Shown: positions 15,080-30,566 of the stretch, piece by piece
How positions within the stretch are numbered: the first letter of the stretch is position 1
Layout: every line of letters begins with the position of its first letter
Source: a virus
Taxonomy: Duplodnaviria; Heunggongvirae; Uroviricota; Caudoviricetes
Strand: one strand, 5' to 3'
IMG/VR virus record: IMGVR_UViG_3300044295_000306
Length of the DNA: 64,000 nt
The notes under the pieces: model-generated
The model's input: the letters and a program-made list of their open reading frames with translations, nothing else
Databases searched by the model: none
What the model was told of the DNA's origin: nothing
Program-made: the position numbers and the translations under genes

Positions 15080-15091
15080 GTATTATCCCAA

Positions 15092-15887: not shown

Positions 15888-16461
15888 CTACCTCCTCCTT
15901 ACCATAAAGTAACATCATTACATCATATGCACAATCATGTACCGGATCATGTTTATATACCACCGACCTATCAAACCCTTCAATATCACAATACCCATCC
16001 GCACGATTATACATCAAGTCTACCGCAGTCCTTACATCACGCCACCTATTGTAATTAAATATAGTCTCCAAACCAATACTCTTCTGTAAATCATCAAATA
16101 CTATCTGATCCAAATTACCCCTAGCCCATACATAATAATTACCTTCCTTCCTCTCCTCCACCCATTCCTTAAACCTATAATACGCATCCTCAACCTTCAT
16201 ATCACCATCCTGAGGTATAAATGACTTCCTCTTAACCAAATCACATTGCTTATCCCACCAATCCACCGTTCCTCTATCAATATACCTATTCAATCTCTTC
16301 CTCTGATCTAATACATCCAACTTTATAAAAAAAGCAGATGAATATAACTCAGCATAATTATATACCTTACCACTCTCAAAGTATATACACGCCCATGATA
16401 ATATTACAGAATCCGATCTTGTACCTAATGTCTCAATATCAAAAATAAACATCTTAATCAC
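15874..16461 (-). CDS. DEDDh-family 3'-5' exonuclease (DexA-like)
   Basis: Exo I motif FIFDIETLG and Exo III motif HDCAYDVMML. Confidence 0.65.
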   Translation of the reverse strand: MIKMFIFDIETLGTRSDSVILSWACIYFESGKVYNYAELYSSAFFIKLDVLDQRKRLNRYIDRGTVDWWDKQCDLVKRKSFIPQDGDMKVEDAYYRFKEWVEERKEGNYYVWARGNLDQIVFDDLQKSIGLETIFNYNRWRDVRTAVDLMYNRADGYCDIEGFDRSVVYKHDPVHDCAYDVMMLLYGKEEVDGSD

Positions 16462-16953
16462 CTTCCAGACCTAGACCCAGACCTAGACCCAGTCCAAGAC
16501 AAAGACCTTGTCCTCTTTAATTGCTTCATCTTAATCACCTTCCAGACCAAGACCTAGACAAATACCTAGACCTAGACCAAGACCTAGACCAAGACCCAGA
16601 CCCAGACCCAGACCCAGACCCAGACCAAGACCTAGACCCAGACCCAGACCCAGACCCAGACCAAGACCTAGACAAAGACCTAGACCAAGACAAAAATCTT
16701 GTTCTCTTTAATTGCTTCATCTTAATCACCTTCCAGACCCAGACCTAGACCAAGACCAAGACCTAGACCAAGACCAATACCTAGACCCAGACCCAGACCT
16801 AGACCAAGACCCAGACCTAGACAAAGACCTAGACAAAGACCTAGACAAAGACCTAGCCAAAGACCTAGACCAAGACCTAGACCCAGACCAAGACCCAGAC
16901 AAAGACCTAGACAAAGACAAAGACAAAAATCTTGTTCTCTTTAATTGCTTCAT
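16462..16953 (-). repeat. tandem AGACC(N) hexanucleotide minisatellite in three higher-order units, each carrying a small SR/SG-repeat ORF
   Basis: units begin GGAAGGTGATTAAGATGAAGCAATTAAAGAG (SD + ATG, MKQLKRTR...) followed by (GGTCT)n-like runs; minus-strand ORFs of 23, 64 and 75 aa (16462-16537, 16535-16729, 16726-16953). Confidence 0.5.
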
Positions 16954-17243
16954 TACTTCAAAATACCAAACGATTCAATCGCCCCAATACTTACATACCA
17001 ATCATTGGGCAACTTCTGTGCATCCTGCCATCCCTTACTATCAAATGATCCAGTCTCATACACAATAGCCGCATCACTCAATAATACACACCTCTCATTC
17101 ACACCAACCAACTTGCCAGTATAAATGTAATTAGCACAAAACAATGTAACTCTCTCTCCCATCAACTTCTCCAAACCCTCACCACTAACTTCTTCAACTA
17201 GCTTTTTCATTTTTACTTCTCCTTTTAGCATGCCATGCGGCAA
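16953..17243 (-). CDS. hypothetical protein
   Basis: 96-aa ORF with AAGGAG SD upstream of internal MKKL start. Confidence 0.4.
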   Translation of the reverse strand: MPHGMLKGEVKMKKLVEEVSGEGLEKLMGERVTLFCANYIYTGKLVGVNERCVLLSDAAIVYETGSFDSKGWQDAQKLPNDWYVSIGAIESFGILK

Positions 17244-17262
17244 ATAAAATTACTACACATAA

Positions 17263-17291
17263 ATTCTAACATTATTAACATATTTTGTCAA
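17263..17291 (-). promoter_or_regulatory. sigma70-like promoter (TTGACA-17-TAGAAT)
   Basis: RC TTGACAAAATATGTTAATAATGTTAGAAT. Confidence 0.45.
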
Positions 17292-17306
17292 GAAATAACC
17301 ATACAA

Positions 17307-17373
17307 TTTTTTGGCCGGAAAATTTCCAAAAACCAAAATACCAGTTTTTTGGCCGGAAAAATTTCCAAAAACC
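17307..17373. repeat. two direct copies of a ~28-bp element TTTTTTGGCCGGAAAA(A)TTTCCAAAAACC with nested inverted repeats
   Basis: copies at 17307-17334 and 17345-17373. Confidence 0.5.
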
Positions 17374-17496
17374 GATATTCCTCAAAACTAGCCCCACGTG
17401 GAGCCCTCAACCCGGTTCCTATTTTGAATTTCCAAAATAAGAACTATACGGATTCTAAAAATTATTATCTAATTCATTTGTTATGCCTTTGTTTAA

Positions 17497-17538
17497 TCAG
17501 TATGGAAGTATTACATCGAATAATAGGAATTCAGTCAA
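17497..17538 (-). promoter_or_regulatory. conserved promoter/5'UTR module copy with no ORF immediately downstream
   Basis: TTGACT-17-TGTAAT then ACTTCCATACTGATTAAACAAAGG; followed only by ATG-AAT-TAG. Confidence 0.45.
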
Positions 17539-17544
17539 GCTGTA

Positions 17545-17865
17545 TTAAGGCTTCAAGGCTGTGGACAGGTTGGCTTTGTACAGGTCGGCTTCTGTCAGGT
17601 TGGCTTTGTACAGGTCGGCTTCTGTCAGGTAGGCGTCGGACAGGTCGGCTTTGAACAGGTAGGCTTCGGACATGTCGGCTTTGAACAGGTTGGCGTTGGA
17701 CAGGTTGGCGTTGGACAGGTTGGCTCCGGACAGGTTGGCTTTGAACAGGTTGGCGTAGGAAAGATTTACGTTCTCGGAAACAGCTTCCTCGACGGCTTGT
17801 TTGATCGTTTTAGCTGTTTTGGATTCAAACAGGACTTGATCGTTGATGGATTTAATTTGAATCAT
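17545..17865 (-). CDS. pentapeptide-repeat protein, family member 1
   Basis: N-terminus [29 protein letters not shown] then A(N/D)LSxA(N/D)LS repeats. Confidence 0.6.
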   Translation of the reverse strand: MIQIKSINDQVLFESKTAKTIKQAVEEAVSENVNLSYANLFKANLSGANLSNANLSNANLFKADMSEAYLFKADLSDAYLTEADLYKANLTEADLYKANLSTALKP

Positions 17866-17884
17866 CGCCGGCGCCTTTGTTTAT

Positions 17885-17926
17885 TCAGTATGGAAGTATT
17901 ATATCGAATAATCGGAATTTAGTCAA
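17885..17926 (-). promoter_or_regulatory. conserved promoter module (TTGACT-17-TATAAT + conserved 5'UTR)
   Basis: RC TTGACTAAATTCCGATTATTCGATATAATACTTCCATACTGAATAAACAAAGG...ATG. Confidence 0.55.
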
Positions 17927-17931
17927 ATTAT

Positions 17932-18363
17932 TTAAATATTCGGTATTTTATCAATCCATTCTGGTATTTCGGTCATACTGCCAAGCTTTGAGGCTACATA
18001 GCAGCGCATTACAGCCACGAGGACGGTAGGACCAAAGTTAAATCTATTAGGTTTGTTCAGGGATGCGACATATCGTTCCTTTGGGTTGGATCGATTTGTG
18101 TGCTCTATTGTAAGGCATTCAGGACTGGCCAGCATTCGATTGATGATTCGGCCGGCGGCTTCCCATTTCCGGCTGAATAGAAGGTCAGGTCCTGTAGTAT
18201 AAGAGCCGTCTAATTCGCCCTCTTCATTCAGATTAAGTCGAAAAAGGGAACCGCTCCATTTATCCACATATAATTGATTCTCTGGTATACCCTCACAACG
18301 GGCCACCAGCCAATCTAGTACACAACCTTCGGCTTGGGCCACTTCGATTTGTTTAGTATTCAT
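17932..18363 (-). CDS. DUF2591 (NinX-like) family phage protein
   Basis: N-terminal KQIEVAQAEGCVLDWLVARCEG pattern. Confidence 0.4.
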   Translation of the reverse strand: MNTKQIEVAQAEGCVLDWLVARCEGIPENQLYVDKWSGSLFRLNLNEEGELDGSYTTGPDLLFSRKWEAAGRIINRMLASPECLTIEHTNRSNPKERYVASLNKPNRFNFGPTVLVAVMRCYVASKLGSMTEIPEWIDKIPNI

Positions 18364-18393
18364 TATTGATCCTTCAGATCATGATCCTTCGGA

Positions 18394-19038
18394 TCATTGA
18401 ACAGTCCGAATTCGAATAATCTTGTTCATCTTACGACCATGGGCCACATAACCGATGACGGGGATATTTTTATCATAACATGCGCGACAATCCAAACACT
18501 TACCGCCTTGGCTCGGGGCGGTGCATACCTTTACACCTTCCGGAGTCGTCATACCCTCAGGAAGAATGGTCGATCCATGCAATCCTTTAGTGAAGGTACC
18601 GTCAATTTCATCGGAAGAGTATCGCACCATCACGTTCGGCAAAGCTTGCATCTGGCCCAGAATACCAGCAAACTTAGGGAATTTATACATACGGGTGGGC
18701 AGCCAGTGTTTGGTATTAGGAGTCTGAACCATAATCTGATACATTTTTTCGGCCAACTTGATTGAATACATATCCCCCGAATCGAACCAACGGAAATACT
18801 TTTCCTTGGCCAAAGCATTCACAAAATCCTTCACAAAGGATTCCCGTTTCCAGTCCTCCTTGTTATTGGCACGAACCTTTTTAACAGCCCCAAAATGATA
18901 CATTCCAGTGGTCGCATAGCAACCCGAACAGGCCGAAACAAGCTTACCATCCGATCCTACCGAACCCGGACAAGTTTCCAAAGCTTGAAGCGACCAGGAT
19001 TTAGTACCAAGCTTCAAGGTTTTCGAAAGATTCAGCAT
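18394..19038 (-). CDS. conserved Cys-rich phage protein (GP88-like)
   Basis: KSWSL..TCPGS..DGKLVSACSGCYATTGMY motif. Confidence 0.35.
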   Translation of the reverse strand: MLNLSKTLKLGTKSWSLQALETCPGSVGSDGKLVSACSGCYATTGMYHFGAVKKVRANNKEDWKRESFVKDFVNALAKEKYFRWFDSGDMYSIKLAEKMYQIMVQTPNTKHWLPTRMYKFPKFAGILGQMQALPNVMVRYSSDEIDGTFTKGLHGSTILPEGMTTPEGVKVCTAPSQGGKCLDCRACYDKNIPVIGYVAHGRKMNKIIRIRTVQ

Positions 19039-19055
19039 GACAGTACCTTGTTTAT

Positions 19056-19097
19056 TCAGTATGGAAGTATTATATCGAATAATCAGAATTTAGTCAA
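19056..19097 (-). promoter_or_regulatory. conserved promoter module
   Basis: TTGACT-17-TATAAT, identical 5'UTR block. Confidence 0.55.
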
Positions 19098-19771
19098 GCG
19101 ACTTTAATAAAACGATTACCAAGAAGAATTGATGCACCCGTCAGGTCGGCGCCGGACAGGTTGGCTTCGGACAGATTAGCCCCGGTCAGGTTGGCTTTGG
19201 TCAGGTTGGCTTCGAACAGATCGGCGCCGTACAGGTTGGCGTAGGACAGGTTGGCGTCGGACAGGTAGGCGTCGGACATGTCGGCTTTGAACAGGTTGGC
19301 GTTGGACAGGTTGGCGTTGGACAGGTTGGCTCCGGACAGGTTGGCTTTGAACAGGTTGGCGTTGGACAGGTTGGCGCCGGACAGGTAGGCGTCGGACAGG
19401 TTGGCGTCGCACAGGTTGGCGCCGGACAGGTTAGCGAAGGACAGGTCGGCGTCGGACAGGTTGGCTTTGGACAGGTTGGCGTTGGACAGGTTGGCGCCGG
19501 ACAGGTCGGCGTAGGACAGGTTGGCTTTGGACAGGTTGGCGTAGAACAGGTTGGCGCCGGACAGGTCGGCGAAGGACAGGTCGGCGTTGGACAGGTTGGC
19601 GTTGGACAGGTCGGCTTTGTACAGGTCGGCGTTGGACAGGTTGGCTTTGGACAGGTCGGCTTTGGACAGGTCGACCATCTTTGCAACAGCTTCCTCAACG
19701 GCTTCCTTGATCGTTTTAGCCGTTTCTGATTCAAACAGGACTTGATCGTTGATGGATTTAATTTGAATCAT
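19094..19771 (-). CDS. pentapeptide-repeat protein, family member 2
   Basis: [29 protein letters not shown] + ~35 ANLSx pentapeptides. Confidence 0.65.
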
Positions 19772-19790
19772 CGGCGGCGCCTTTGTTTAA

Positions 19791-19832
19791 TCAGTATGGA
19801 AGTATTATATCGAATAATCAGAATTTAGTCAA
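19791..19832 (-). promoter_or_regulatory. conserved promoter module
   Basis: same module. Confidence 0.55.
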
Positions 19833-20450
19833 GAGCATTGAAGCGTTGGACAGGTCGGCTTTGGACAGGTCGGCTTTGGACAGGTCGGCTTTGGACAGGT
19901 TGGCTTTGTACAGGTAGGCGTTGGACAGGTTGGCTCCGGTCAGGTCGGCTTCGGACAGGTCGGCTTTGGACAGGTTGGCTTTGTACAGGTAGGCGTTGGA
20001 CAGGTTGGCTTCGGACAGGAACGCTCCGGTCAGGTCGGCTTCGGACAGGTCGGCTTTGGACAGGTTGGCGTCGGACAGGTCGGCTTCGGTCAGGTCGGCT
20101 TCGGACAGGTTGGCGTCGGATAGATCGGCTTTGGACAGGTTGGCGTCGGACAGGTCGGCTTCGGACAGGTCGGCTTCGGACAGGTTGGCGTCGGATAGAT
20201 CGGCTTTATACAGATTAACTTTGGACAGATCAGCCCCGGCCAGATTAGTCCCGGACAGATTAGCTTTGGATAGATTAGCTTTGTACAGATAAGCCCCGGC
20301 CAGATTAGCTTTAGAAAGATCAACCCTGGACAGATCAGCCCTGAACAGGTTTACCTTTAATTTAACGGCTTCCTCGACGGCTTTCTTGATCGTTTTAGCC
20401 GTTTCTGATTCAAACAGGACTTGATCGTTGATGGATTTAATTTGAATCAT
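19818..20450 (-). CDS. pentapeptide-repeat protein, family member 3
   Basis: conserved N-terminus + ADLSx repeats. Confidence 0.65.
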
Positions 20451-20468
20451 TTGTTATACTTTGTTTAA

Positions 20469-20510
20469 TCAGTATGGAAGTATTATATCGAATAATCAGA
20501 ATTTTGTCAA
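20469..20510 (-). promoter_or_regulatory. conserved promoter module
   Basis: TTGACA-17-TATAAT. Confidence 0.55.
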
Positions 20511-20553
20511 GCGGCTGGTTCACGCCGCCGAAGCGGCTTTAATCTAGGCTAGC

Positions 20554-20949
20554 CTACCGGTAGGCTTCGGACAGGTTGGCTTCGGACAGATCAGCGCCGG
20601 TCAGGTTAGCGCCGTACAGGTCGGCTCCGGTCAGGGTCGCTTTGTACAGGTTGGCTTTGGACAGGTTGGCGTAGGACAGGTTTGCTTTGGACAGGTTGGC
20701 GTAGGACAGATCGGCGTCGGTCAGGTCGGCGTAGGTCAGATCGGCGTTGGTCAGGTTGGCGTCGGACAGGTTGGCGTTGATCAGGTCGGCGTTGATCAGG
20801 TAGGCTTTGGACAGGTTAGCGCCGTACAGGTTGGCGTAGGACAGGCCGACCATCTTTGCAATAGCTTCCTCAACGGCTTCCTTGATCGTTTTAGCCGTTT
20901 CTAATTCAAACAGGACTTGATCGTTGATGGATTTAATTTGAATCATCTT
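20554..20949 (-). CDS. pentapeptide-repeat protein, family member 4 (start placed at conserved MIQIKS; track ORF extends to 21102)
   Basis: conserved N-terminus [29 protein letters not shown] + repeats; promoter module at 20967-21008. Confidence 0.55.
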
Positions 20950-21004
20950 CCAGCGCCTTTGTTTATTCAGTATGGAGATATTATAGTGAATATTCGGTAT
21001 TTTG

Positions 21005-21379
21005 TCAAGCGGCTGGAAGAACCCCAGGAAATTCGCCGGCGATATAGCCGTAAGAGATTCCCAGACAGTATTCCAAATAATTATTGTCGCCCTTGGTATC
21101 ATACGCTTGATGGAGCCATTCTATAGCCATTTCACGGCTTTTGGCTCCACAGGACATAAGCTGAAGGATTCGGCGCTCAAAATCATCTTCGGCCAGAATC
21201 TGACGGCTCTGCTCTTCATTCCAGGAAGCATCAGCGGCCTTCATTAGATCATTCCAAGTGGATTGTTTTTGATCGTCCGTGGCTGTGGACCAGAAGGTCC
21301 AGAAGTCGATAGACGGACGAATTCCATATGCATCTTTGTGGAGATCGGAGACCGTATCATTGCAATAGGTATAGATCAT
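21005..21379 (-). CDS. hypothetical protein
   Basis: 124-aa ORF, promoter module at 21409-21440. Confidence 0.4.
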
Positions 21380-21546
21380 TTGGATATATTCTTGTTTATT
21401 CAGTATGGAAGTATTATATCGAATATTCGGTATTTTGTCAAATGGTATATTATACAGAAAGAGGAGGGTTTAGCCCCCTGGCGGGTAGGGGTTAGGATTT
21501 TCAGGTGGATTAGGGACGAGTTCTAAAGGTGGCTAGTGTCATTTTA

Positions 21547-22380
21547 TCAACCGCAAATTGTATATTCAGCCAGGTTTTTCCAGTTGCTACCACCACCCTT
21601 ACGGATGATAGTAACCTGAATGAGAGTCCGTAGTGTTAATTCCTTTACTTTGTCTGCTAAGGATTCGATCAGGTCGATAGCATCTTGTTTATATTGTTGT
21701 TTATATTCTTGCATAAAATCATCTTGGGAGAGCAGGAATCGCATTCTATCGATTTTCTGTTGGCGCGTCATAGAAAGATCAACGGCCATGGAGCGGGAGA
21801 TGATGGCTTGATCCATTTGAATGGATGAAAGATTGGAAATGAAGATTACACGACCACGGAATTCAAAGCTAGTCGGCAAATCCTCATCGCGGATATCGGC
21901 TCTCCAGGAGATAATACGGCGACTGTAAGAATCCAGCGCGGCTTTAAGTAGATTAAGGGACACTGGATCCTTCAGAACGGAATCGCAATCATCGAAAACG
22001 ATGACGCCATTTTGATTCTCATACAAGGTCCTGTAGAGACCTTTAGGCGTAGAATAGCCTTTAACTACGATGAAGGACTTTTTTGTACTCAGGGAAGATC
22101 CGACTTCAAAGGATGCGAGGTCGGAATAATCTTGCATGCCACAGGATTGGAGGGCTTTTAAGACGTTAAAGGTTTTGCCGAGGCCGCCCGGGCCGGTGAT
22201 TACGACTGAGGATTGGTCGCCTTTACAGAGGAGTTGGACCATATCTTGGACAAAGCCGAATCGTTCATTGATGGTGAATCTGGAGGAGGGAACGGTTTCA
22301 AGCGCAGGCGTTTGGTTAGTAACGCGGTTCATGTAGTTTTTGGTTTTGCGAAAGCCGTTCTTGGGTACGCCGCGGGGCAT
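21547..22380 (-). CDS. P-loop ATPase (AAA-like)
   Basis: Walker A GPGGLGKT, Walker B IVFDDCDS. Confidence 0.55.
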   Translation of the reverse strand: MPRGVPKNGFRKTKNYMNRVTNQTPALETVPSSRFTINERFGFVQDMVQLLCKGDQSSVVITGPGGLGKTFNVLKALQSCGMQDYSDLASFEVGSSLSTKKSFIVVKGYSTPKGLYRTLYENQNGVIVFDDCDSVLKDPVSLNLLKAALDSYSRRIISWRADIRDEDLPTSFEFRGRVIFISNLSSIQMDQAIISRSMAVDLSMTRQQKIDRMRFLLSQDDFMQEYKQQYKQDAIDLIESLADKVKELTLRTLIQVTIIRKGGGSNWKNLAEYTICG

Positions 22381-22399
22381 GGATTACTCCGTTAATCAA

Positions 22400-22441
22400 T
22401 CAGTATGGAAGTATTATATCGAATAATCGGTATTTTGTCAA
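22400..22441 (-). promoter_or_regulatory. conserved promoter module
   Basis: TTGACA-17-TATAAT. Confidence 0.55.
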
Positions 22442-22653: not shown

Positions 22654-22952
22654 ATTTGGCTTTCCTTGTTTATTCAGTATGGAAGTATTATATCGAATAA
22701 TCGGAATTTAGTCAAGTGTTTGATTGGTGGGTGGTGCGGAGGAGGGAGATATTAGGTGCGATGAAGTCTAAATTGGAGAGGTCGATATTGGCTTGTTTGG
22801 CTTGGATGAGGGTTTCTTTACAGGATTTGGCGGTGGTGGATTGGAAGAGGACTTTATTGGTGGATGAAATGATTTGGAAGATCATTAGGAAGTCCTTTAT
22901 ATATTCAATATAGGGTCATTATATCGAATAATCGGTATTTTGTCAAATGATA

Positions 22953-23333: not shown

Positions 23334-23392
23334 TTGTTATACTTTCTTTATCAGTATGGAAGTATTATATCGAATAATAGGTATTTTGTCAA

Positions 23393-23641: not shown

Positions 23642-23870
23642 GACTTGTTCACGCTTCTGTTGTTCAGTATAAGAATATTATATTAGGATTAGGATTTTTC
23701 GTCAAGCGTTTTTTGAAGAATGATAAGCCTGGTATTGATGACAGAGAGTCCATATATAATGGTACTGTAGCCCAAAATCTTGTATAACGTAACATCCAAC
23801 GTCATCAAATAGCTTACCACAAGGGCAATGGCCAAGCCTTCAAGATTATCCACACTAAAGAATTTCATGA

Positions 23871-24251: not shown

Positions 24252-24317
24252 TTGAAAATCCTTGTTTATTCAGTATGGAAGTATTATATCGAATAATGGA
24301 TATTATGTCAAGCGGTA

Positions 24318-24509
24318 TTATTCGCCCCAATCATCCTTTTCGCCATCTTTTTCGCGGTATAAATCAAGGCGATATGAGCGAACTGGCGACAGAAAAACTA
24401 TTTTATTACAACAACTTACACGGACTTTGACAGTGCGATCATATGTATCGGTATTAATTAGAGCCACCTCAGGCACTTTTGCAATACGATTACAATTTGG
24501 GCATTTCAT
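24318..24509 (-). CDS. small zinc-ribbon protein
   Basis: CPNC...CC pairs; module at 24527-24569. Confidence 0.4.
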   Translation of the reverse strand: MKCPNCNRIAKVPEVALINTDTYDRTVKVRVSCCNKIVFLSPVRSYRLDLYREKDGEKDDWGE

Positions 24510-24574
24510 GTTTTATTATCCTGCTATTCAGTAGCAGTTAATTATAGTGAATAATAGGTATTTTGTCAACTAAT

Positions 24575-24886
24575 TTACATAGACCAATAGGTCTCGGATG
24601 ACGGATCGCAGCAAATAGGAGTATCCGTTGCAATTTGAATCTTTTTGCCTGACATTAAGTTGGTGACAGTCTTATAAGTTGGAAAGTATTCAAAAGAATA
24701 ACCATCCACAGACTTATAATGCCGTCTGAGCTTTCGGACTTCCCGTTTCATATCGGTTTTATCATGTTTATCATACTGAAATGAACAGATAAACCGTTTA
24801 CCGATCTTATTCGGACTGCCATACTTAGCCCCACGGGTAAGACGTTTATCTTTCTTATACAGTCGTAAGGTATAGGAATGTTTCAT
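24575..24886 (-). CDS. hypothetical basic protein
   Basis: 103-aa ORF; module at 24898-24940. Confidence 0.4.
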   Translation of the reverse strand: MKHSYTLRLYKKDKRLTRGAKYGSPNKIGKRFICSFQYDKHDKTDMKREVRKLRRHYKSVDGYSFEYFPTYKTVTNLMSGKKIQIATDTPICCDPSSETYWSM

Positions 24887-24937
24887 TGTTATTTCCTAAT
24901 CAATATGGAAACAGTATACCAAATAATAGGAATTTTG

Positions 24938-25303
24938 TCAACCGATTAGTTTATTATAGATATCTCTATTAAGTCCTTCGAGTTTTTTAACTTTCAATCT
25001 TTCAGGACCGGGAGTCCATGATAGCTTATTTAATACATACATTCGCATGACAAGATTATCCATAATTTGTTTGGCGTCATACAAACCCAAACCTTCTTTA
25101 GCCCGAATCAATTTAACTGATTCATATAATTTACGGTTTGCGATCATGTCGCAAACTTCATCGGCATAAGATTTATGTGGATCGACAAGTTCCACAAAAG
25201 TTTCTGGATATCTTTTGGCCAATTTAATAACAATACTTTTATAATCCAAATCCTCTTGTGCTAGGATATCGATTACCTTTTTATAGGTATTAATAATTTC
25301 CAT
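24938..25303 (-). CDS. small protein with bL12 C-terminal-domain-like motif, paralog B
   Basis: LYESVKLIRAKEGLGLYDAKQIMDNL matches bL12 CTD [11 protein letters not shown] core; shares DLD(F/Y)..I(V/I)(R/K)LAK..PETF with paralog A. Confidence 0.45.
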   Translation of the reverse strand: MEIINTYKKVIDILAQEDLDYKSIVIKLAKRYPETFVELVDPHKSYADEVCDMIANRKLYESVKLIRAKEGLGLYDAKQIMDNLVMRMYVLNKLSWTPGPERLKVKKLEGLNRDIYNKLIG

Positions 25304-25420
25304 GTTGTTTATATCGATTCCTAATAGGATTTTCTTGGGATTCTAGATAGTCGGCCAGCAATCCTAGTGCGGCTAGGATGATACAAAATAGACCGACACT
25401 AAGGATTGCTTCGAGCATGA

Positions 25421-25759
25421 TTAAACTTCCGCGGTAGCACCGATACCGGCGCGCACGGTGACGGTAACAGGACCAGGTTTGCGTGAAGCTTTCTTAGCTG
25501 CAATACCGATCTTAGGTTCTTGAAGCTTTTTAATGCGAGCTTGAAGTTCCTTAATCTTGGCTTCGCGCTTTTCTTTTCGCGCTTTAGCCTTTTCGGCCTT
25601 GCTTTTTTGCAGGGCTTCCTTGGCTTCCTGTCGAGCCTTTTTAATCTGATCTTGAATAATATTAATTCGCGCGAGATTGTCCTTGACGGTTTGCCGAATC
25701 TGGCCATTCTCTTGCTGAATAAGTTTCACGGTCTTGCGAAGATCATTAACAGTAGTCAT
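25421..25759 (-). CDS. coiled-coil basic protein
   Basis: Lys/Glu/Ala heptad-like region; module at 25781-25820. Confidence 0.4.
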   Translation of the reverse strand: MTTVNDLRKTVKLIQQENGQIRQTVKDNLARINIIQDQIKKARQEAKEALQKSKAEKAKARKEKREAKIKELQARIKKLQEPKIGIAAKKASRKPGPVTVTVRAGIGATAEV

Positions 25760-25826
25760 TTTGGTAATTCCTTTTAATTAAGTGTGAAAATATTATATCG
25801 AATAATAGGTATTTTGTCAATCAATA

Positions 25827-26078
25827 TTATTTTACTTCGATTTCTTCAATACTAAAAATATAAGGACATTCAAATTCCACGATACCATTTACCTTAGTAT
25901 ATGCATCGATTTCAATTTGCTTTTGTTTTTCGGCTGCCTCGAGGGTAGAGTATATGGGTTTGAAGGACCAATCCTCACCACCGTCAATGCTTGTGCCAAT
26001 TAGCTGATAGACTTTCATCGCTTCATTCCAAAGTAGTATGGAAGTATTATAGTGAATATTCGGTATTTTGTCAATCAA
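25827..26078 (-). CDS. hypothetical protein
   Basis: 83-aa ORF; C-terminal 40 nt duplicated at 26069-26110 in a 37-codon mini-paralog. Confidence 0.35.
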   Translation of the reverse strand: MIDKIPNIHYNTSILLWNEAMKVYQLIGTSIDGGEDWSFKPIYSTLEAAEKQKQIEIDAYTKVNGIVEFECPYIFSIEEIEVK

Positions 26079-26201
26079 TATTATTTTACTTCGATTTCTT
26101 CAATACTAAACAATGCAATTGGATTCCATTTTAAAGTCAAATTTTTACAGTTTACACACACCCTGTCTTTTGGATCAGAAAAGGTCTCTTCCATACATTG
26201 A

Positions 26202-26447
26202 TTACCTATTATACCATATAATATGAGTAGCGTTATTGGGAATTTCTTTTAATCGTGAAGGTTTGATAAAAATATCAGGATCGCATTTATTATCCCTTAC
26301 TGGATGTCCGAACCCATCGCAATCCAAGAATCCCCCATTTTTACAAAATCTTTTAAATTCTTCGATAGTATAAACATCATCCTCTGTTTCTGGACCAGAG
26401 CCATAGTTACCACTTGAAGAAAAATTAACTGTTTTAGTATAAGCCAT
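26202..26447 (-). CDS. hypothetical protein
   Basis: 81-aa ORF. Confidence 0.35.
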   Translation of the reverse strand: MAYTKTVNFSSSGNYGSGPETEDDVYTIEEFKRFCKNGGFLDCDGFGHPVRDNKCDPDIFIKPSRLKEIPNNATHIIWYNR

Positions 26448-26496: not shown

Positions 26497-26715
26497 TCAC
26501 TGGTCATATCCAATACAATCGATTTGGATATGTTCTGAATCAATCAGAATATCACTAGGATCGGTATTAGGCCATTTGTTGTTAATGGCTTCTAACAGAT
26601 CGCTAAGTGACAAAATCTGTGAAGAAGGAATATATAAAGTGTTGTCGGTATCATCAGGACGAAACTGAGTAATACCACGCGAATTTTTTGAGTAGCCCAT
26701 GCTAAAGTATTCCAA
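26497..26715 (-). CDS. hypothetical protein
   Basis: 72-aa ORF. Confidence 0.35.
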   Translation of the reverse strand: MEYFSMGYSKNSRGITQFRPDDTDNTLYIPSSQILSLSDLLEAINNKWPNTDPSDILIDSEHIQIDCIGYDQ

Positions 26716-27071
26716 AACTTTTAAAAGAATAGATCAACATGAATACACCAGCGAGCCCGGGCATCACCTGAAAAATAAAGGCTGATATGAAATTTTTGGT
26801 ATTCATAAGAAAGGCAATAATGGTAAAATAGATACCAAAAACAACAAAAACATAATTAGCCACAGTTTGCATGATATTAATCCTTAAAAAGGATTCACAG
26901 GAATGATTACTTGTTTGGTATTGTCCACTCGGTCATTGAACACATAGGGCTCAAAACTTTCATTATGGAATATACCGTTGCATTCATCGTTGACCGTAAC
27001 TTCCAAATTAGGATCAAATTCTTTAAGGCAATCGATAAGTTCTTGAACGGTCATTTTCCAAACTTTCTTTA

Positions 27072-27111
27072 TCAGTATGGAAGTATTATAGTGAATATTC
27101 GGTATTTTGTC
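27072..27111 (-). promoter_or_regulatory. conserved promoter module
   Basis: TTGACA-17-TATAAT. Confidence 0.5.
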
Positions 27112-27173
27112 AAATTATTTTTTAACCAACATACCAACAGATTCTTTAGCACGATCCAGCAATTCATACAAGG

Positions 27174-27818
27174 CTAGGCGTTGGACAGATTGGCGTTGGA
27201 CAGATTGGCTTTGGACAGGTCCAAGGCGCCGGACAGGTTGGCGTTGATCAGGTCGGCGTCGGACAGGTCGGCGAAGGACAGGTAGGCGTCGGACAGGTTG
27301 GCGCCGGACAGGTCGGCGAAGGACAGGTTGGCGTAGGACAGGTTGGCGTAGGACAGGTTGGCGTAGGACAGGTTGGCGTTGGACAGGTCGGCGTCGGACA
27401 GGTAGGCGTAGGACAGGTTGGCTCCGGACAGGTTGGCGTAGGACAGGTTTGCTTTGGACAGATCGGCGACGTACAGGTTGGCGTAGGACAGGTCGGCGTT
27501 GGACAGGTTGGCGCCGGACAGGTCGGCGTAGGACAGGTTGGCTTTGGACAGGTTGGCGTAGAACAGGTTGGCGCCGGACAGGTCGGCTTCGGACAGGTCG
27601 GCTTCGGACAGGTTGGCGTCGGATAGATCGGCTTTATACAGATTAACTTTGGACAGATCAGCCCCGGCCAGATTAGTCCCGGACAGATCAACCCTGGACA
27701 GATCAGCCCTGAACAGGTTTACCTTTAATTTAACGGCTTCCTCGACGGCTTGTTTGATTGTTTTAGCTGTTTTAGATTCAAACAATACTTGACCGGTAAT
27801 GGATTTGATTTGGATCAT
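27174..27818 (-). CDS. pentapeptide-repeat protein, family member 6
   Basis: conserved N-terminus + ~37 pentapeptides; module at 27838-27878. Confidence 0.65.
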   Translation of the reverse strand: MIQIKSITGQVLFESKTAKTIKQAVEEAVKLKVNLFRADLSRVDLSGTNLAGADLSKVNLYKADLSDANLSEADLSEADLSGANLFYANLSKANLSYADLSGANLSNADLSYANLYVADLSKANLSYANLSGANLSYAYLSDADLSNANLSYANLSYANLSYANLSFADLSGANLSDAYLSFADLSDADLINANLSGALDLSKANLSNANLSNA

Positions 27819-27870
27819 TTGTTATGCCTTTGTTTAATCAGTGTAGAAGTATTATATCAAATAATGGATA

Positions 27871-28326
27871 TTATGTCAATAAACTATTGACATTAATAAA
27901 TTCACAGACTAATCCTGTATCATCATTGGTAAATGATGCATTAGGTACAACATCATCGATTAGGACATTAACTTGGTGGTCAAAATGAAATCGGCAAAAG
28001 TTTTGAAATGCTCCTGTTTTGCCACGGATTGAAACAAAATCCGTAATGCTATCAAATTGCAATCCTGTCATTAGTGTATCGGCTCGCATCATATCTTCAA
28101 CGGAGGGGCGAGCGGCGATATTGACTTTAAGGACTTTTTCTAGTGTAGATTTGAATCGGCGATCAAAATCATCTTGATCTTTTTTATTCCAGATTGCGAA
28201 TGAAAAGATATGGACTTTTTTGACGTTATTTTGTTGAAGAAACTCCCGGACAGGAGTGGTATGCAATAACATGCCATCTGCCCAGGAAGTGATTACAGTT
28301 TCTTCTAGATCGAGGAATACATTCAT
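27871..28326 (-). CDS. hypothetical protein
   Basis: 151-aa ORF; module at 28338-28378. Confidence 0.4.
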   Translation of the reverse strand: MNVFLDLEETVITSWADGMLLHTTPVREFLQQNNVKKVHIFSFAIWNKKDQDDFDRRFKSTLEKVLKVNIAARPSVEDMMRADTLMTGLQFDSITDFVSIRGKTGAFQNFCRFHFDHQVNVLIDDVVPNASFTNDDTGLVCEFINVNSLLT

Positions 28327-28382
28327 GATTATGTTCTATCAATGAATGCATTATACGATAAATTGGTTATTTTGTCAATCTA

Positions 28383-28961
28383 TTAAAAGATACAGTTTAG
28401 ACCAACGATGGTGCTAAGAACAATAAATGCCCCAGCCGTAAAAATCTTAATCTCAGCCAAGTTGCTTGAAATTTCACTCGCTGTAAGATACCGACGATTG
28501 AACAGTCCTTTAAGCACCGGTCGTGTTTCATACTTACAATCATGAAACCGTTTAGTAATCAACAACCACACTGCCATGCCAAAACCAAAGACAAGAATAA
28601 AGCTACCTACAAGGACGCCCAAGATATCCTTGCCCATGACTTTATAAACAACGATAACCGTTACAATCTTGCCTAGTTGGGTACCAGAGAATTCATTGGC
28701 TGCTACACCAACTTCCTTTGCAGCGGATACCAATGCTGTTCCGATGTTTGAACCAAGATCAGCCCAAGCGGCGGCTTCATTGCGAACCGTTGCACTTAGA
28801 TTCTCAGGACTTTTCATCTTGTCCCTTTGTGCAACAAGGGAATTGATTTGTTCTTGACTTAGTCCTCGGGTATCGATGGCTGTAGTGCCACCAAATGCAA
28901 GTCCATAAAAGCCCATCATTAGGGCAATAATAAAAAGTTTTTTCATCCGAAGAATCTCCAT
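28383..28961 (-). CDS. membrane protein
   Basis: N-terminal signal/TM plus three C-terminal hydrophobic helices. Confidence 0.45.
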   Translation of the reverse strand: MEILRMKKLFIIALMMGFYGLAFGGTTAIDTRGLSQEQINSLVAQRDKMKSPENLSATVRNEAAAWADLGSNIGTALVSAAKEVGVAANEFSGTQLGKIVTVIVVYKVMGKDILGVLVGSFILVFGFGMAVWLLITKRFHDCKYETRPVLKGLFNRRYLTASEISSNLAEIKIFTAGAFIVLSTIVGLNCIF

Positions 28962-29146
28962 GCGATAACAGCTAGGTTAAAAAACATTGCAAACATATTG
29001 ACGATTTTAGGTAAAGGGTGCTCACTTATACCAGCGACATAGGCAGTTAGAGCCACGCATAATACGTTAATGTAAGTCATAGTATGATTCATTTGTTTTT
29101 CCGTTTATTCATTATGAATGTATTATACGATAAATTGATTATTTTG

Positions 29147-29440
29147 TCAAAATTTACGGAGAATGGCCGCGACAAGTGCAGCTTGTTTAACATTTCTACA
29201 ATATTCTTCATATTCTTCCTCAACCCTGGCACGAAGAATAGGATTATTCCTGAAATCATTAACAGTATATTTTGTGAAATCAATTAACCATTTTTGATGC
29301 TTTTTTGGTCCTTCAGCACCACATCCTCCACATACAACCAAATGATATTTTATGGTTCGCTCATATTCACCATATCCACCACGTTCATCATATTCTTTTT
29401 GTTCAGCTTTACTACCACAAAATGGACATAATGCTATCAT
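29147..29440 (-). CDS. Lar-like restriction-alleviation zinc-finger protein
   Basis: N-terminal LCPFCGS...VVCGGCGA pattern typical of Lar family; module at 29109-29150. Confidence 0.45.
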   Translation of the reverse strand: MIALCPFCGSKAEQKEYDERGGYGEYERTIKYHLVVCGGCGAEGPKKHQKWLIDFTKYTVNDFRNNPILRARVEEEYEEYCRNVKQAALVAAILRKF

Positions 29441-29766
29441 AATTAACCTCTAAACTTTCTCGCTCCACAAACACCACATATCAAGTACAAAGAAAATGGC
29501 TTTCCATCTACTCTCCATAGATGAAAGCCATTAGAACAATTTAATCTTTTACTAATCACACGACTTAAATCGATAAAATGTGGCTGAATACATCATCGTG
29601 AATTCATCTTTCATAATATTATACATGCGCGTTCCATATCCCATAGGATGAAAACTCAAACACTCAAGTCGGAATTCCTCATTCAATTCCTCTATACTTC
29701 CAGCAGTCCATTGCTGTTTAAGAGAAGAAACATTATCAACAATATTTTTTTTGCTGACGGTCATTA

Positions 29767-30237
29767 TTACTCCATCACACATTGTTCCGCTGGCCAGGTC
29801 AATTCGGCAAAAAACTTGCTTCTATAAGTCCGATAGAACCAACCACCGTTATTAGGACGGAAGACATAATTATATTCTTCCTTTTGACCACTCATTGCAT
29901 ACATTTCAAAATTCCAGAAAGAACGTGCTGCACAGCCTTCTTCTCCACGATCACGTCCATAAAAGAGACACATTTTTGAATGCGCTTCATATTCCGGAGT
30001 ATCAAAAGGAGGCGCACTAAAACTCCGCTTATAACCAATCGATTCACCAAGAAAACTAAGATCGCCCTCTTTCATCAGATTGTCCAGTTTCTCGAAATCT
30101 GACCAATTTTCAAGGAGAAGCTTACCATTATGCGAGGGATAACCATCCCAATGACAATAGACTTGTTTAACAGTACCATCAGGATATTCAAGAGCGATAG
30201 TTGAACGGGTAGCCATTTCGATTCCTTGTTTATTCAA
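29767..30237 (-). CDS. hypothetical protein
   Basis: 156-aa ORF; last copy of conserved module at 30234-30276. Confidence 0.4.
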   Translation of the reverse strand: MNKQGIEMATRSTIALEYPDGTVKQVYCHWDGYPSHNGKLLLENWSDFEKLDNLMKEGDLSFLGESIGYKRSFSAPPFDTPEYEAHSKMCLFYGRDRGEEGCAARSFWNFEMYAMSGQKEEYNYVFRPNNGGWFYRTYRSKFFAELTWPAEQCVME

Positions 30238-30566
30238 TATAGAGATATTATATCAAATAATAGGTATTTTGTCAAACGAATAAATTAACAAAATACCGCA
30301 TATAGCACCAATAAAATAAGCAAAAAACGCAATATATCAACTAAAATAATTGTTGCAAATAGAAGGATATCAAACAGCTTCATAAGCTAATTTCCATTCA
30401 ATTTCATTAATCGATACAACAGAAAAAGTGGCAGAAAAACGTGGTGCTGCTAATTTTACCAACCCATCAGCGGGATATGCTATAACAGTATCTAAAGACC
30501 ATGTTCGATTAGGATCATTAATCCAGCGCCAGTATATTTTATCACCAAGATTAGGTTTTTTGTTCA

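What the first reader, a model, noticed from the sequence alone, without database searches (positions are those of the whole stretch)
16441..30280. Host-takeover-like region: over 20 small genes each behind the same ~45-nt consensus sigma70 promoter plus conserved 5'UTR module
Every intergenic gap carries, on the minus strand, TTGAC(A/T)AAATNCCGATTATTCGATATAATACTTCCATACTGAATAAACAAAGG then ATG. That is a perfect TTGACA-17-TATAAT promoter followed by a ~25-nt conserved leader. Copies lie at about 17497, 17885, 19056, 19791, 20469, 20967, 21409, 22400, 22674, 22903, 23351, 23663, 24269, 24527, 24898, 25781, 26031, 27072, 27838, 28338, 29109 and 30234. Conservation extends well beyond the -35 and -10 boxes, which implies selection on the spacer and leader (a regulator site, translational enhancer or sRNA target) or recent amplification. 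The module at 17497 has no ORF behind it.
Basis: seen in the sequence. Interest (0 to 1): 0.8.

Follow-up and report, generated by a model that had tools for sequence, protein, structure and literature searches.

The report
Repeated early-promoter cassettes in jumbo phage
A 13-kb stretch of an uncultured giant phage carries 22 near-identical copies of a strong bacterial-type promoter plus short leader, in front of two thirds of its small genes. It is a hairpin-less variant of the promoter cassettes already known from T4-like phages, and the copies appear to be kept alike by recombination, with no evidence for a special regulator.

Summary
There are 22 copies of TTGAC(A/T)AAAT(A/T)CCGATTATTCGATATAAT-ACTTCCATACTGA(A/T)TAAACAA(A)GG, all on the minus strand between 17493 and 30275 (0 expected by chance). 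A sequence profile separates them cleanly from everything else in the window.

Twenty-one copies sit 12-28 nt upstream of an ATG that opens an ORF. The last copy (17538) is a decayed relic with a TGTAAT -10 and ATG-AAT-TAG behind it.

The window comes from an uncultured phage of at least 307 kb with 30 tRNA genes.

The promoter-plus-leader reading is supported by sequence only. The idea that the spacer is under selection is not supported. Fifteen other consensus sigma70-type promoters in the same window lack the module's spacer and start region. Related phages carry their own, different, internally uniform cassettes. The orthologous promoter of one shared gene has an unrelated spacer (26% identity). 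Module variants and the pentapeptide paralogues are recombinant mosaics.

The discriminator, start and leader half follows a grammar shared across the phage family, so it is probably functional.

The closest known system is the PeSL cassette of T4-type phages, but its defining stem-loop is absent here. I file this as a new variant of a known kind, of moderate interest.

The parts
30230..30275 (-). Module m30275 (12/12 hexamers). It drives gene 29767-30216 (149 aa, phrog_1987). Genes 29552-29764 and 29147-29440 follow without a module of their own.
29105..29150 (-). Module m29150 (divergent spacer AAATAATCAATTTATCG). It drives 28943-29092 (49 aa), then 28383-28946 (about 187 aa, phrog_19575).
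   Evidence: 39.0 bits
28333..28378 (-). Module m28378, the same spacer subtype as m29150 and the weakest full copy. It drives 27871-28326 (151 aa).
   Evidence: 31.8 bits
27834..27879 (-). Module m27879. It drives pentapeptide-repeat paralogue 27174-27818 (214 aa, GC 57%).
27068..27113 (-). Module m27113. It drives 26884-27054 (56 aa). Four genes without modules follow (26702-26872, 26497-26700, 26202-26447, 26081-26194).
26029..26074 (-). Module m26074 (short leader). It drives 25827-26018 (63 aa). It shares 35 nt of upstream sequence (gene 3' end ...FSIEEIEVK*) with m25820.
25775..25820 (-). Module m25820. It drives 25421-25759 (112 aa), then 25290-25418 and 24938-25303 (121 aa, a paralogue of 23871-24251).
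24896..24941 (-). Module m24941 (-10 TATACT). It drives 24575-24886 (103 aa).
24524..24569 (-). Module m24569 (divergent start region). It drives 24318-24509 (63 aa, CxxC pairs).
24266..24311 (-). Module m24311. It drives 23871-24251 (126 aa, weak L7/L12-C-like hit), then 23689-23868 (59 aa).
23660..23705 (-). Module m23705, the most divergent spacer (-35 TTGACG). It drives 23393-23641 (82 aa). The upstream gene's stop lies 16 nt inside the module.
23347..23392 (-). Module m23392. It drives pentapeptide paralogue 22953-23333 (126 aa).
22901..22946 (-). Module m22946. It drives 22712-22885 (57 aa, a degenerate copy of the pentapeptide family's N-terminal domain).
22670..22715 (-). Module m22715, the best-scoring copy at 66.1 bits. 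It drives 22438-22653 (71 aa).
22396..22441 (-). Module m22441. It drives the P-loop/AAA-like gene 21547-22380 (277 aa, phrog_1250). Its leader TGATTGATTAACGGAG is the one conserved in orthologues.
21396..21441 (-). Module m21441. It drives 21005-21379 (124 aa, phrog_21968). It is the only module with a terminator-like hairpin upstream (21462-21479).
20963..21008 (-). Module m21008. It drives pentapeptide paralogue 20554-20946 (130 aa). The upstream stop TGA lies inside the -35.
20465..20510 (-). Module m20510. It drives pentapeptide paralogue 19818-20450 (210 aa), a mosaic with a 19771-like 5' part and a 27818-like following part.
19787..19832 (-). Module m19832. It drives pentapeptide paralogue 19094-19771 (225 aa). 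The upstream gene reads 14 nt into the module and stops at the TGA of TTCTGATT.
19052..19097 (-). Module m19097. It drives 18394-19038 (214 aa, Pfam GP88/DUF7227), then 17932-18363 (143 aa, NinX-like) without a module.
17881..17926 (-). Module m17926. It drives pentapeptide paralogue 17545-17865 (106 aa).
17493..17538 (-). Module m17538, the terminal orphan copy. Its -35 is TTGACT and its -10 is TGTAAT (key A lost). Its leader is identical to that of the pentapeptide gene at 27818, but it is followed by ATG AAT TAG. It looks like a relic of a deleted paralogue.
17927..17956 (-). Degenerate module remnant TTGATAAAATACCGAATATTTAAATAAT. It forms the last codons (..IDKIPNI*) of the NinX-like gene, immediately upstream of m17926.
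   Evidence: 15.1 bits

Best explanation
Each module is a complete, very compact expression cassette. It has these parts in order:
- a consensus -35 (TTGACA), a 17-bp spacer and a consensus -10 (TATAAT);
- a discriminator and start region, ACTTCC-A-TACTGA;
- an unstructured A-rich leader with a GG-containing Shine-Dalgarno;
- an ATG about 22-29 nt after the predicted start.

Inferred: the host RNA polymerase with its housekeeping sigma factor fires from all of them straight after DNA entry, without any phage protein. That would give each small gene of this accessory block its own strong start. There are no terminators between them, so transcripts should run on and also cover the 11 genes that lack a module.

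Shown: the copies resemble each other beyond the two hexamers because they are copies of one another. They spread together with the pentapeptide-repeat gene duplications and onto unrelated genes, and they are kept alike by recombination or gene conversion within the genome (concerted evolution).

Inferred, by analogy with PeSL elements: the 45-60 bp of shared sequence in turn gives the phage's recombination system sites at which gene cassettes can be duplicated, deleted or swapped.

The two halves of the module differ. The discriminator, start and leader half follows a grammar shared by the whole phage family and is probably selected for efficient initiation and translation. The spacer is lineage-specific and is not needed for promoter function.
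For: Copy number and position:
- 22 copies on one strand, 0 expected by chance; 15 match the hexamers at 12/12 and 6 at 11/12.
- A profile separates them sharply from all other sequence.
- An ATG opening an ORF follows 21 of 22 copies.
- In 18 of 22 the upstream stop codon is inside the module or at most 7 nt before it. Six times it is the TGA within TTGACA.

No structure:
- No hairpins or terminators accompany the modules.
- The leaders fold no better than shuffled sequence.

The spacer and start region are not needed for promoter function:
- 15 other consensus promoters in the window share the hexamers only. Spacer identity is 39-42% against 72% inside the array; start-region identity is 31% against 71%.

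Relatives carry different cassettes:
- Relatives found through the P-loop protein (64-74% aa identity) have different, internally near-identical cassettes (L007 x5, L009, L011/L012, L030).
- The window's promoter for that shared gene has 26% spacer identity to the orthologous promoters, but it keeps their leader TGATTGATTA and a similar discriminator (ACTTCCAT against ACTTGTAT).
- L018, found independently through protein similarity, has TATAAT-TCTTCCATACTTTAAAACAAAAGG, which is 20/24 identical to the window's start and leader.

Recombination within the array:
- Variant sites occur in all four combinations (GATT/GAAT with CGA/CAC; TTGACA/TTGACT with the leader types).
- Paralogues 27818 and 23333 share 87 identical nt at the 5' end, yet are 58% identical in protein overall.
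- Paralogue 20450 is a 5'/3' mosaic of two others.
- m26074 and m25820 share the 3' end of their upstream genes. A module remnant forms the end of the NinX-like gene. The terminal copy is a truncated relic.

Mixed cargo:
- Cargo genes range from 31% to 57% GC behind the same AT-rich module.

Cassette turnover in relatives:
- In the related pair L011/L012, two of six indel or replacement junctions coincide with a promoter cassette.

Precedent:
- PeSL cassettes are described in PMC2839356 and PMC4122927.
- Consensus beyond the hexamers in T4 early promoters is described in PMC2988021.
Against: - There are no transcript data. The host is unknown, so 'sigma70' means a housekeeping-sigma consensus and nothing more.
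- Early timing is inferred from promoter type and gene content only.
- No relatives at 80-98% identity exist in the collections (the nearest exonuclease homologue is 67% identical). Cassette-mediated gene exchange therefore could not be shown for this lineage.
- L001 and L002 are collinear with the window.
- Having two promoter populations in one genome would equally fit a separately regulated class.
- High identity alone cannot separate homogenisation from strong selection.
Confidence: 0.7

Rival explanations
1. The modules form a separately regulated promoter class. A phage-encoded (or host) DNA-binding factor would recognise the conserved spacer and/or the start region and switch all 22 promoters on or off together, as an operator embedded in the promoter. 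The sequence would then be held by selection.
For: The window holds two promoter populations with the same hexamers but different spacers and start regions. The spacer is 72% identical on average across unrelated genes. An imperfect dyad, TACCGAWT|ATTCGATA, lies in the spacer.
Against: The dyad is no better than chance: 44% of shuffles match the major variant, and 6% match the best variant, which occurs only once. Spacer variants do not change symmetrically. Related phages have unrelated spacers at the orthologous promoter, so any factor would have to co-evolve in every lineage. No regulator gene is recognisable in the array.
Confidence: 0.12
2. The conserved leader acts at the RNA level, as a translational enhancer, an RNase or sRNA target, or a three-frame stop that ends stray upstream translation. 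That role, and not promoter function or ancestry, would explain the conservation downstream of the -10.
For: The start and leader half is conserved across the phage family, well beyond this genome (TATTGATTGATTAGGAG and CCATACT..AAACAAAAGG). It is A/U-rich and unstructured, which suits ribosome loading. TGATTGATTGA/TGATTGATTAA carries stops in all three frames (read from the sequences).
Against: It gives no Rfam match and folds no better than shuffles. The first 6-8 conserved nucleotides after the -10 are probably not transcribed. This reading does not explain the conserved spacer. Stops in all three frames are expected often in AT-rich sequence of about 60 nt (my estimate, not tested).
Confidence: 0.2
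3. The array is only the neutral trace of a very recent tandem amplification. The module has had no time to diverge and has no role in recombination or regulation.
For: Seven of 21 module-led genes are pentapeptide paralogues whose 5' coding ends are as similar as their modules (86% against 89% nt identity). Neighbouring copies share subtype variants. The terminal copy is a truncated duplicate.
Against: Fourteen modules precede genes that are unrelated to each other except for one paralogous pair, and there the similarity stops abruptly at the leader. The paralogues' bodies are only 52-70% identical while their modules and 5' ends are 74-100% identical. All four combinations of variant sites are present. 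Module identity does not fall with distance along the array (Spearman -0.09, p = 0.19).
Confidence: 0.12
4. The repeats are an assembly artefact, produced by collapsed or chimeric joining of reads.
For: Short-read assemblies fragment at the modules (1,010-1,032-bp Logan contigs ending in modules). The first 98 nt of L002 look chimeric.
Against: Two independent JGI contigs reproduce 12-13 consecutive modules with their unique genes at 99.85-99.99% identity. Every module is flanked by unique sequence.
Confidence: 0.01

Closest known systems
PeSL (promoter-early stem-loop) cassettes of T4-type phages (RB49/phi1/JSE, PST/T4, nt-1/KVP40; Arbiol et al. 2010 PMC2839356; Comeau et al. 2014 PMC4122927)
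   Same: Both are repeated intergenic cassettes with a near-perfect sigma70-type promoter, an SD and the start codon at the 3' end. Both are concentrated in blocks of small genes of unknown function. In both, the sequence is conserved beyond the hexamers and the consensus is lineage-specific. In JSE I read aaaaagttgTTGACA-ggggatcNNNgatcccc-TATAAT-acacacataccgaaacgaa..ggagaatcaaaATG. Its start region, ACACACATACCGAA, resembles the window's ACTTCCATACTGAA at 10 of 14 positions, or 12 of 19 over a longer stretch.
   Different: The stem-loop that defines a PeSL is missing. JSE, Munch and L037 cassettes fold at -12.8 to -13.3 kcal/mol (z -2.1 to -3.8). The window's modules fold at 0 to -3.3 kcal/mol (z -0.55 to +1.2). 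There is also no room for an AT-rich upstream element or a terminator, because the upstream gene ends in or next to the -35. The density (22 in 12.8 kb) and uniformity are higher than the example quoted for nt-1 (six in about 5 kb). Recombination at the cassettes is inferred here and was not observed. The phage is an uncultured phage of at least 307 kb, only distantly related to T4-type phages.
T4 early promoters (Pe), the 'uber' UP/-35/TGn/-10 promoters (Hinton 2010, PMC2988021)
   Same: Both are strong housekeeping-sigma promoters that serve many small pre-replicative genes. Alignments of both show consensus beyond the canonical elements.
   Different: T4 Pe rely on UP elements and TGn. Here TGn is present in only 3 of 22 copies, and the UP position is coding sequence. 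T4 Pe are similar to one another but not near-identical. No Alt, AsiA or MotA counterpart was looked for or seen in the window.
SPO1 host-takeover module (Bacillus phage SPO1; from my own knowledge, not tested here)
   Same: Both are clusters of about two dozen small genes served by many strong host-sigma early promoters.
   Different: The SPO1 module lies in the terminal redundancy, and several of its products have demonstrated host shut-off activity. Neither point could be tested here. I know of no report that SPO1 early promoters share their spacer and leader to this degree.
Strong coliphage early promoters with functional initially transcribed regions (T5 PN25, T7 A1, lambda PL/PR; sequences from my own knowledge)
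   Same: Both have a C-A-T start context with A at +1 and U at +2 followed by an A-rich stretch (for example PN25 TATAAT-AGATTC-ATAAATTTGAG against TATAAT-ACTTCC-ATACTGAATAAAC). Downstream sequence is known to affect promoter clearance in these promoters.
   Different: Those are single promoters. They are not a multi-copy cassette family fused to an SD and start codon.

Membership tests
PeSL cassette (T4-type phages) | Near-consensus sigma70-type early promoter (-35, about 17 bp, -10) | tested here: met
   15 copies match at 12/12 and 6 at 11/12, all with a 17-bp spacer.
PeSL cassette (T4-type phages) | Stable stem-loop inside or just upstream of the promoter, acting as a terminator or attenuator | tested here: not met
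   Modules fold at 0 to -3.3 kcal/mol (z -0.55 to +1.2), against -12.8 to -13.3 kcal/mol for the JSE, Munch and L037 controls. Only one terminator-like hairpin lies near a module (21462-21479), and terminator counts equal the shuffle expectation.
PeSL cassette (T4-type phages) | AT-rich (UP-like) region upstream of the -35 | tested here: inconclusive
   The 25 nt upstream are 63% A+T against 58% for the region. They are mostly the 3' end of the upstream gene and show no conserved sequence.
PeSL cassette (T4-type phages) | Shine-Dalgarno and start codon of the downstream gene at the 3' end of the element | tested here: met
   An ATG lies 12-28 nt after the conserved part in 21 of 22 copies, preceded by AAGG/GGAG-type runs.
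PeSL cassette (T4-type phages) | Concentration in hyperplastic regions rich in small genes of unknown function | tested here: met
   The array holds 32 small genes in 12.8 kb. Most have no Pfam or PHROG function. Strain-level gene-content differences occur nearby.
PeSL cassette (T4-type phages) | Indels, replacements or mini-circles bounded by the cassettes in closely related phages | not testable with these tools
   No relative closer than 67% aa identity is available. Other samples hold the same strain. There is indirect support: mosaic variants, and in the related pair L011/L012 two of six junctions lie at cassettes. Mini-circles need inverse PCR.
T4-type early promoter (UP/-35/TGn/-10) | Extended -10 (TGn) | tested here: not met
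   TG precedes the -10 in only 3 of 22 modules (30275, 27879, 24941).
T4-type early promoter (UP/-35/TGn/-10) | Transcription immediately after infection by unmodified host RNA polymerase | not testable with these tools
   This needs infected-cell RNA or in vitro transcription. The host is unknown: the genome-contig scan gave only two single hits in Clostridia MAGs.
Structured cis-regulatory RNA or known RNA family in the leader | Match to an Rfam model, or folding more stable than shuffles | tested here: not met
   No Rfam hit falls in 11-38 kb at E <= 1 apart from one tRNA and one chance miRNA hit. Leader folding z-scores run from -0.31 to +1.66.
Operator for a dimeric regulator embedded in the spacer | Dyad symmetry better than chance and kept across copies | tested here: not met
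   The best dyad matches 6/8 in the major variant, and 44% of shuffles do as well. The 7/8 dyad occurs in a single copy.

The most novel reading that the evidence does not exclude
The 22 modules are a distinct regulatory class, not merely copies. A factor would read the lineage-specific spacer and/or the conserved start region (ACTTCC-ATACTGA, which contains a -10-like CATACT at the start site). The phage could then drive or shut its accessory-gene block independently of its 15 'plain' consensus promoters. A related reading is that the discriminator and start region ties early expression to host physiology, in the way rRNA P1 promoters do. E. coli rrnB P1 has the same TATAAT-N8-ACTGA geometry.
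Probability: 0.12. Interest if true: 0.6.

Novelty: new variant of a known kind. Interest (0 to 1): 0.35.

Why it matters
The array shows that the 'mobile regulatory cassette' style of organising phage accessory genes extends beyond cultured T4-type phages. It reaches an uncultured phage lineage of at least 307 kb and can work in a stripped-down form. Here one 46-nt unit supplies the upstream gene's stop codon, the promoter, the leader and the ribosome site, with no hairpin.

The array also offers a natural experiment. It has 22 near-identical strong promoters, alongside 15 that share only the hexamers. That contrast can test what spacer and initially transcribed sequences contribute to promoter strength.

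There is a practical warning as well. Such arrays break short-read assemblies exactly at the cassettes, so accessory regions of large phages will be under-assembled.

None of this changes current understanding of phage early transcription.

Tried and rejected
1. Near-identical DNA in cultured phages. Megablast of the whole region found nothing. Short-query blastn of the module gave only weak partial hits.
2. Exact module strings in IMG/VR. One scan gave 0 hits, one gave 3 chance hits without a -35, and one gave 0.
3. A scan for the spacer's first half gave 27 single hits. The best (L055/L064/L069) shares only AAATACCGATTAT.
4. Metagenome scan for TTGAC-N18-TATAAT-NN-TTCCATACTGA.
   - It returned six contigs. 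Four of them (L037, L040-L042) carry dense arrays with their own spacer and the same start motif, but share essentially no proteins with the window: the only hit is one 41%-identity match of 76 residues, in L037.
   - I do not count this as evidence of shared function. The loci were selected by the motif itself, and among the very many consensus promoters in that collection a few 11-mer coincidences are expected.
5. Resemblance to the rRNA P1 promoter.
   - The rrnB P1 sequence was verified. It shares the TATAAT-N8-ACTGA geometry with the module and CGGAATAA with the L037-type spacer.
   - The resemblance to the window's own spacer is weak. I keep this as a lead only.
6. Host identification through the genome-contig scan gave two isolated hits in Clostridia MAGs, which is uninformative.
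7. Dyad-symmetric operator in the spacer: not significant.
8. RNA structure or a known RNA family in the leader: none.
9. Stem-loop or terminator component: none.
10. Rearrangements between samples. L001 and L002 are collinear with the window. The apparent gene-order difference came from gene calling, and the odd 5' end of L002 sits at a contig edge inside repeats.
11. Homology between the window's P-loop gene and the 272-aa gene in JSE's PeSL-rich region: none.
12. Decline of module similarity with distance along the array: none.

Full report
**1. The observation**

On the minus strand between 17493 and 30275 there are 22 copies of a roughly 46-nt unit:

TTGAC(A/T)AAAT(A/T)CC(G/T)A(T/A)TATTC(GA/AC)TATAAT-ACTTCCATACTGA(A/T)TAAACAA(A)GG

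- The 29-nt core with up to 3 mismatches finds 17 copies. A looser pattern anchored on the -35, the -10 and the start finds 21. Dinucleotide-preserving shuffles give 0.00 and 0.06.
- A relaxed scan adds the copy at 28378. The copy at 17538, whose -10 is TGTAAT, was already among the hits.
- An ungapped alignment shows that conservation begins exactly at the -35 and decays about 20 nt after the -10. Nothing upstream is conserved.
- A sequence-only profile built from the 22 copies scores them at 31.8-66.1 bits. The next best match in the window is an ordinary promoter at 24.7 bits. A degenerate remnant at 17932-17956 scores 15.1 bits.
- The consensus scan grades 15 copies at 12/12 against TTGACA-17-TATAAT and six at 11/12.

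Two corrections are needed. First, only 21 of the 32 genes in the block have their own module. Second, the stretch 16441-17290 contains no module.

**2. The surroundings**

- The window is AT-rich (36% G+C) and all its genes are on the minus strand. It carries 30 tRNA genes at 3210-11425.
- It also encodes DNA ligase, RNA ligase, both ribonucleotide reductase subunits, a primase, a DexA-like exonuclease, an endolysin and a collagen-like tail fibre.
- No cultured phage is close. Megablast finds nothing, and the ligase is at most 39% identical.
- The exonuclease next to the array occurs on a 307,349-bp contig, so this is a jumbo phage. Its nearest homologue is 67% identical.
- The same strain is present in two JGI metagenomes and several SRA runs. 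Contigs L001 and L002 reproduce 7.3-7.6 kb of the array at 99.85-99.99% identity. Short-read contigs end precisely in modules. The array is therefore real, and it is hard to assemble.

**3. Anatomy**

- Behind 21 modules an ATG opens an ORF of 49-277 aa. The ATG lies 12-28 nt after the end of the conserved part and is preceded by an AAGG/GGAG-type run.
- Seven of these genes are pentapeptide-repeat paralogues with a common 29-residue N-terminus. One of the seven is degenerate.
- The others include a GP88/DUF7227 protein, a NinX-like protein, a P-loop protein (phrog_1250), two weakly L7/L12-C-like paralogues, and many small proteins with no family.
- The packing is extreme. In 18 of 22 cases the upstream stop codon lies inside the module or at most 7 nt before it, and six times it is the TGA within TTGACA.
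- The modules have no hairpins or intrinsic terminators. One terminator-like site lies near a module, and the overall terminator count equals the shuffle expectation.
- Transcripts that start at the predicted +1 fold no better than shuffled sequence.
- Rfam finds nothing relevant in the region.
- The last copy (17538) has lost the critical A of the -10. It keeps the exact leader of a pentapeptide gene but is followed by ATG AAT TAG, so it is a decaying relic at the edge of the array.

**4. Why the copies are so alike**

Four lines of evidence favour shared ancestry with ongoing homogenisation over selection on the spacer.

(a) The window holds 15 further promoters with consensus hexamers, in front of the tRNA clusters, the ligase, the RNA ligase, the primase and other genes. 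Their spacers are 39-42% identical to each other and to the array, against 72% within the array. Their start regions are 31% identical, against 71%. The module's extra sequence is therefore not required for a promoter to be used in this phage.

(b) The P-loop protein has 27 relatives in IMG/VR at 64-74% identity. Several of those genomes carry their own near-identical cassettes with different sequences:
- L007: ACCACTTGACAAATAGGTAATTATTTGGTATAATGTAGTCTGAATAATTGATT, five copies in 2.3 kb.
- L009: GGTTGCCATTCC..TGTGCTATAGTCCATCCATCGAAT.
- L011/L012: GTTGCCAATAGGAACCTGTTCTGTATAATGGTCTGTATTGAAT.
- L030 also carries its own version.

(c) For that one orthologous gene, the window's spacer is 26% identical to the orthologous spacers, which is random. 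It is typical of its own genome's modules. The leader TGATTGATTA and a similar discriminator (ACTTCCAT against ACTTGTAT) are retained.

(d) The copies are mosaics:
- Variant sites occur in all four combinations.
- Paralogues 27818 and 23333 share 87 identical nucleotides at the 5' end, yet are 58% identical in protein overall.
- Paralogue 20450 joins a 19771-type 5' end to a 27818-type continuation.
- Two modules share the 3' end of their upstream genes, and a module remnant forms the last codons of the NinX-like gene.
- The cargo genes range from 31% to 57% G+C behind the same AT-rich module. This fits cassettes of mixed origin.

**5. What does look selected**

The discriminator, start and leader half obeys a grammar that recurs across the family. 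Orthologous promoters carry (TATAAT/TAGAAT)-ACTTGTAT-TGATTGATTAGG. An unrelated gene in L018 has TATAAT-TCTTCCATACTTTAAAACAAAAGG, which is 20/24 identical to the window's sequence. L018 was found through protein similarity and not through the motif.

The C-A-T start context and the A/U-rich, unstructured leader resemble classical strong phage promoters (my own knowledge of PN25, T7 A1 and lambda PL/PR). I read this half as tuned for initiation and ribosome loading. That function is an inference.

**6. Comparison with known systems**

The closest described system is the PeSL of T4-type phages. [quoted passage not shown] PeSLs concentrate in hyperplastic regions and mediate gene shuffling and mini-circle formation (PMC2839356, PMC4122927).

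- I read bona fide PeSLs from phage JSE: aaaaagttgTTGACA-ggggatcNNNgatcccc-TATAAT-acacacataccgaaacgaa..ggagaatcaaaATG. They too are conserved through the spacer and the start region, and their start region resembles the window's.
- Their hairpin is absent here. The JSE, Munch and L037 cassettes fold at about -13 kcal/mol (z -2.1 to -3.8). The window's modules fold at 0 to -3.3 kcal/mol, which is indistinguishable from shuffles.
- Relatives L011 and L012 do have a small hairpin just upstream of the -35. The window's form therefore looks like a compacted derivative.
- T4 early promoters are also known to share consensus beyond the canonical elements (PMC2988021). They depend on UP and TGn elements, which are lacking here.

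Direct evidence for cassette-mediated exchange could not be obtained for this lineage. In the related pair L011/L012 (88-96% nt identity), whole-gene indels are frequent, and two of six junctions coincide with a promoter cassette.

**7. Leads that did not hold**

- The spacer's dyad symmetry is not significant.
- Metagenomic contigs that share the start motif (L037-L042) have no meaningful protein similarity to the window. They were selected by the motif itself, so they prove little.
- The module shares the TATAAT-N8-ACTGA geometry with E. coli rrnB P1. The L037-type spacer shares CGGAATAA with rrnB P1. The window's own spacer does not convincingly resemble it.
- The host remains unknown.

**8. 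Verdict**

The sequence observation is confirmed. The promoter-plus-leader interpretation is well supported by sequence, but there is no experimental evidence for it. The extended conservation is best explained by amplification and concerted evolution of a promoter cassette whose downstream half follows a family-wide functional grammar.

This is a stem-loop-less, unusually dense and uniform variant of a known kind, the PeSL-type early-promoter cassette, in a new jumbo-phage lineage. The interest is moderate.

Noticed in passing
window 16441-16955, minus strand: Three tandem mini-ORFs (75, about 61 and about 24 aa) each begin MKQLKRTR and continue as serine-X dipeptide repeats (SR/SL/SW/SG). 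They are encoded by a roughly 60-copy AGACCT hexamer array. Each ends in GGAAGGTGATTAAG-ATG of the next ORF, and the last feeds into the DexA-like exonuclease gene. None has a module. Their function is unknown.
   Followed up: partly
window 17236-17470 (repeats at 17307-17342 and 17346-17381): The orphan module 17538 is followed by about 230 nt of non-coding sequence. It holds two 36-nt direct repeats, TTTTT(T)GGCCGGAAAA(A)TTTCCAAAAACC, each internally palindromic. A different consensus promoter follows at 17291. This marks the boundary of the array. No Rfam family matches it.
   Followed up: partly
window 17545-23333 and 27174-27818: This is a compositional island. Its genes have 45-57% G+C (GC3 up to 0.79) against 36% for the window, and the GC skew changes sign. 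The pentapeptide-repeat genes are the extreme case. The pattern suggests foreign origin or strong repeat-codon bias.
   Followed up: partly
window 17545-17865, 19094-19771, 19818-20450, 20554-20946, 22712-22885, 22953-23333, 27174-27818: Seven pentapeptide-repeat paralogues share the N-terminal motif MIQIKSI(N/T)(D/G)QVLFES(E/K)TAKTIK(E/Q)AVEEAV. Homologues of about 50% identity, some with Pfam PF19062, occur in multiple copies in other phage-like contigs (L080, next to ERF/RusA; L081, three copies near DnaB and DNA polymerase A). They may be DNA-mimic or anti-host proteins; this was not tested.
   Followed up: partly
window 3210-11425: Thirty tRNA genes lie in clusters, each cluster behind an ordinary TTGACA-17-TATAAT promoter without the module's spacer or start region. 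One is a tRNA-Ile(tat), reported as a 95-nt gene.
   Followed up: no
L045/L046/L047 (equivalent to window about 12500-16450): Strains of the same phage from different samples differ in small-gene content between the exonuclease and the DNA ligase. This is hyperplastic behaviour next to the array. All these contigs end within about 500 nt upstream of the exonuclease gene, at the repeat region.
   Followed up: no
L037 (10,155 nt), L040, L041, L042: These unrelated metagenomic phage-like contigs carry very dense arrays of consensus promoters, up to 18 in 10 kb. They share their own cassette, TTGACnnnnnGGAATAAGTTTGCTATAAT(A/G)CT(C/T)CCATACTGAACGAAGGGG. L037 encodes three T7 gp0.7-like kinase paralogues. 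The spacer 8-mer CGGAATAA and the TATAAT-N8-ACTGA geometry match E. coli rrnB P1.
   Followed up: partly
L078 (Salmonella phage Munch, 1680 and 2986) and L077 (phage JSE, 2978): Two unrelated cultured enterobacterial phages have promoters of the form TTGAC..GGGAGTA..TATAAT/TATTAT-ACTCCCATA. A hairpin (GGGAGTAT/ATACTCCC) encloses the -10 box. This is a second PeSL hairpin placement, besides the in-spacer GGGGATC..GATCCCC type.
   Followed up: partly
L060, minus strand at 4242: The promoter-like site is TTGACAAATACCGAATATTCAGTAATATGAAATCAGTTACCGAAAATTCGGTAA. It contains a perfect palindrome, ACCGAAAATTCGGT, which looks like an operator. It was found only because it shares ACCGAATATTC with the window's spacer.
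   Followed up: no
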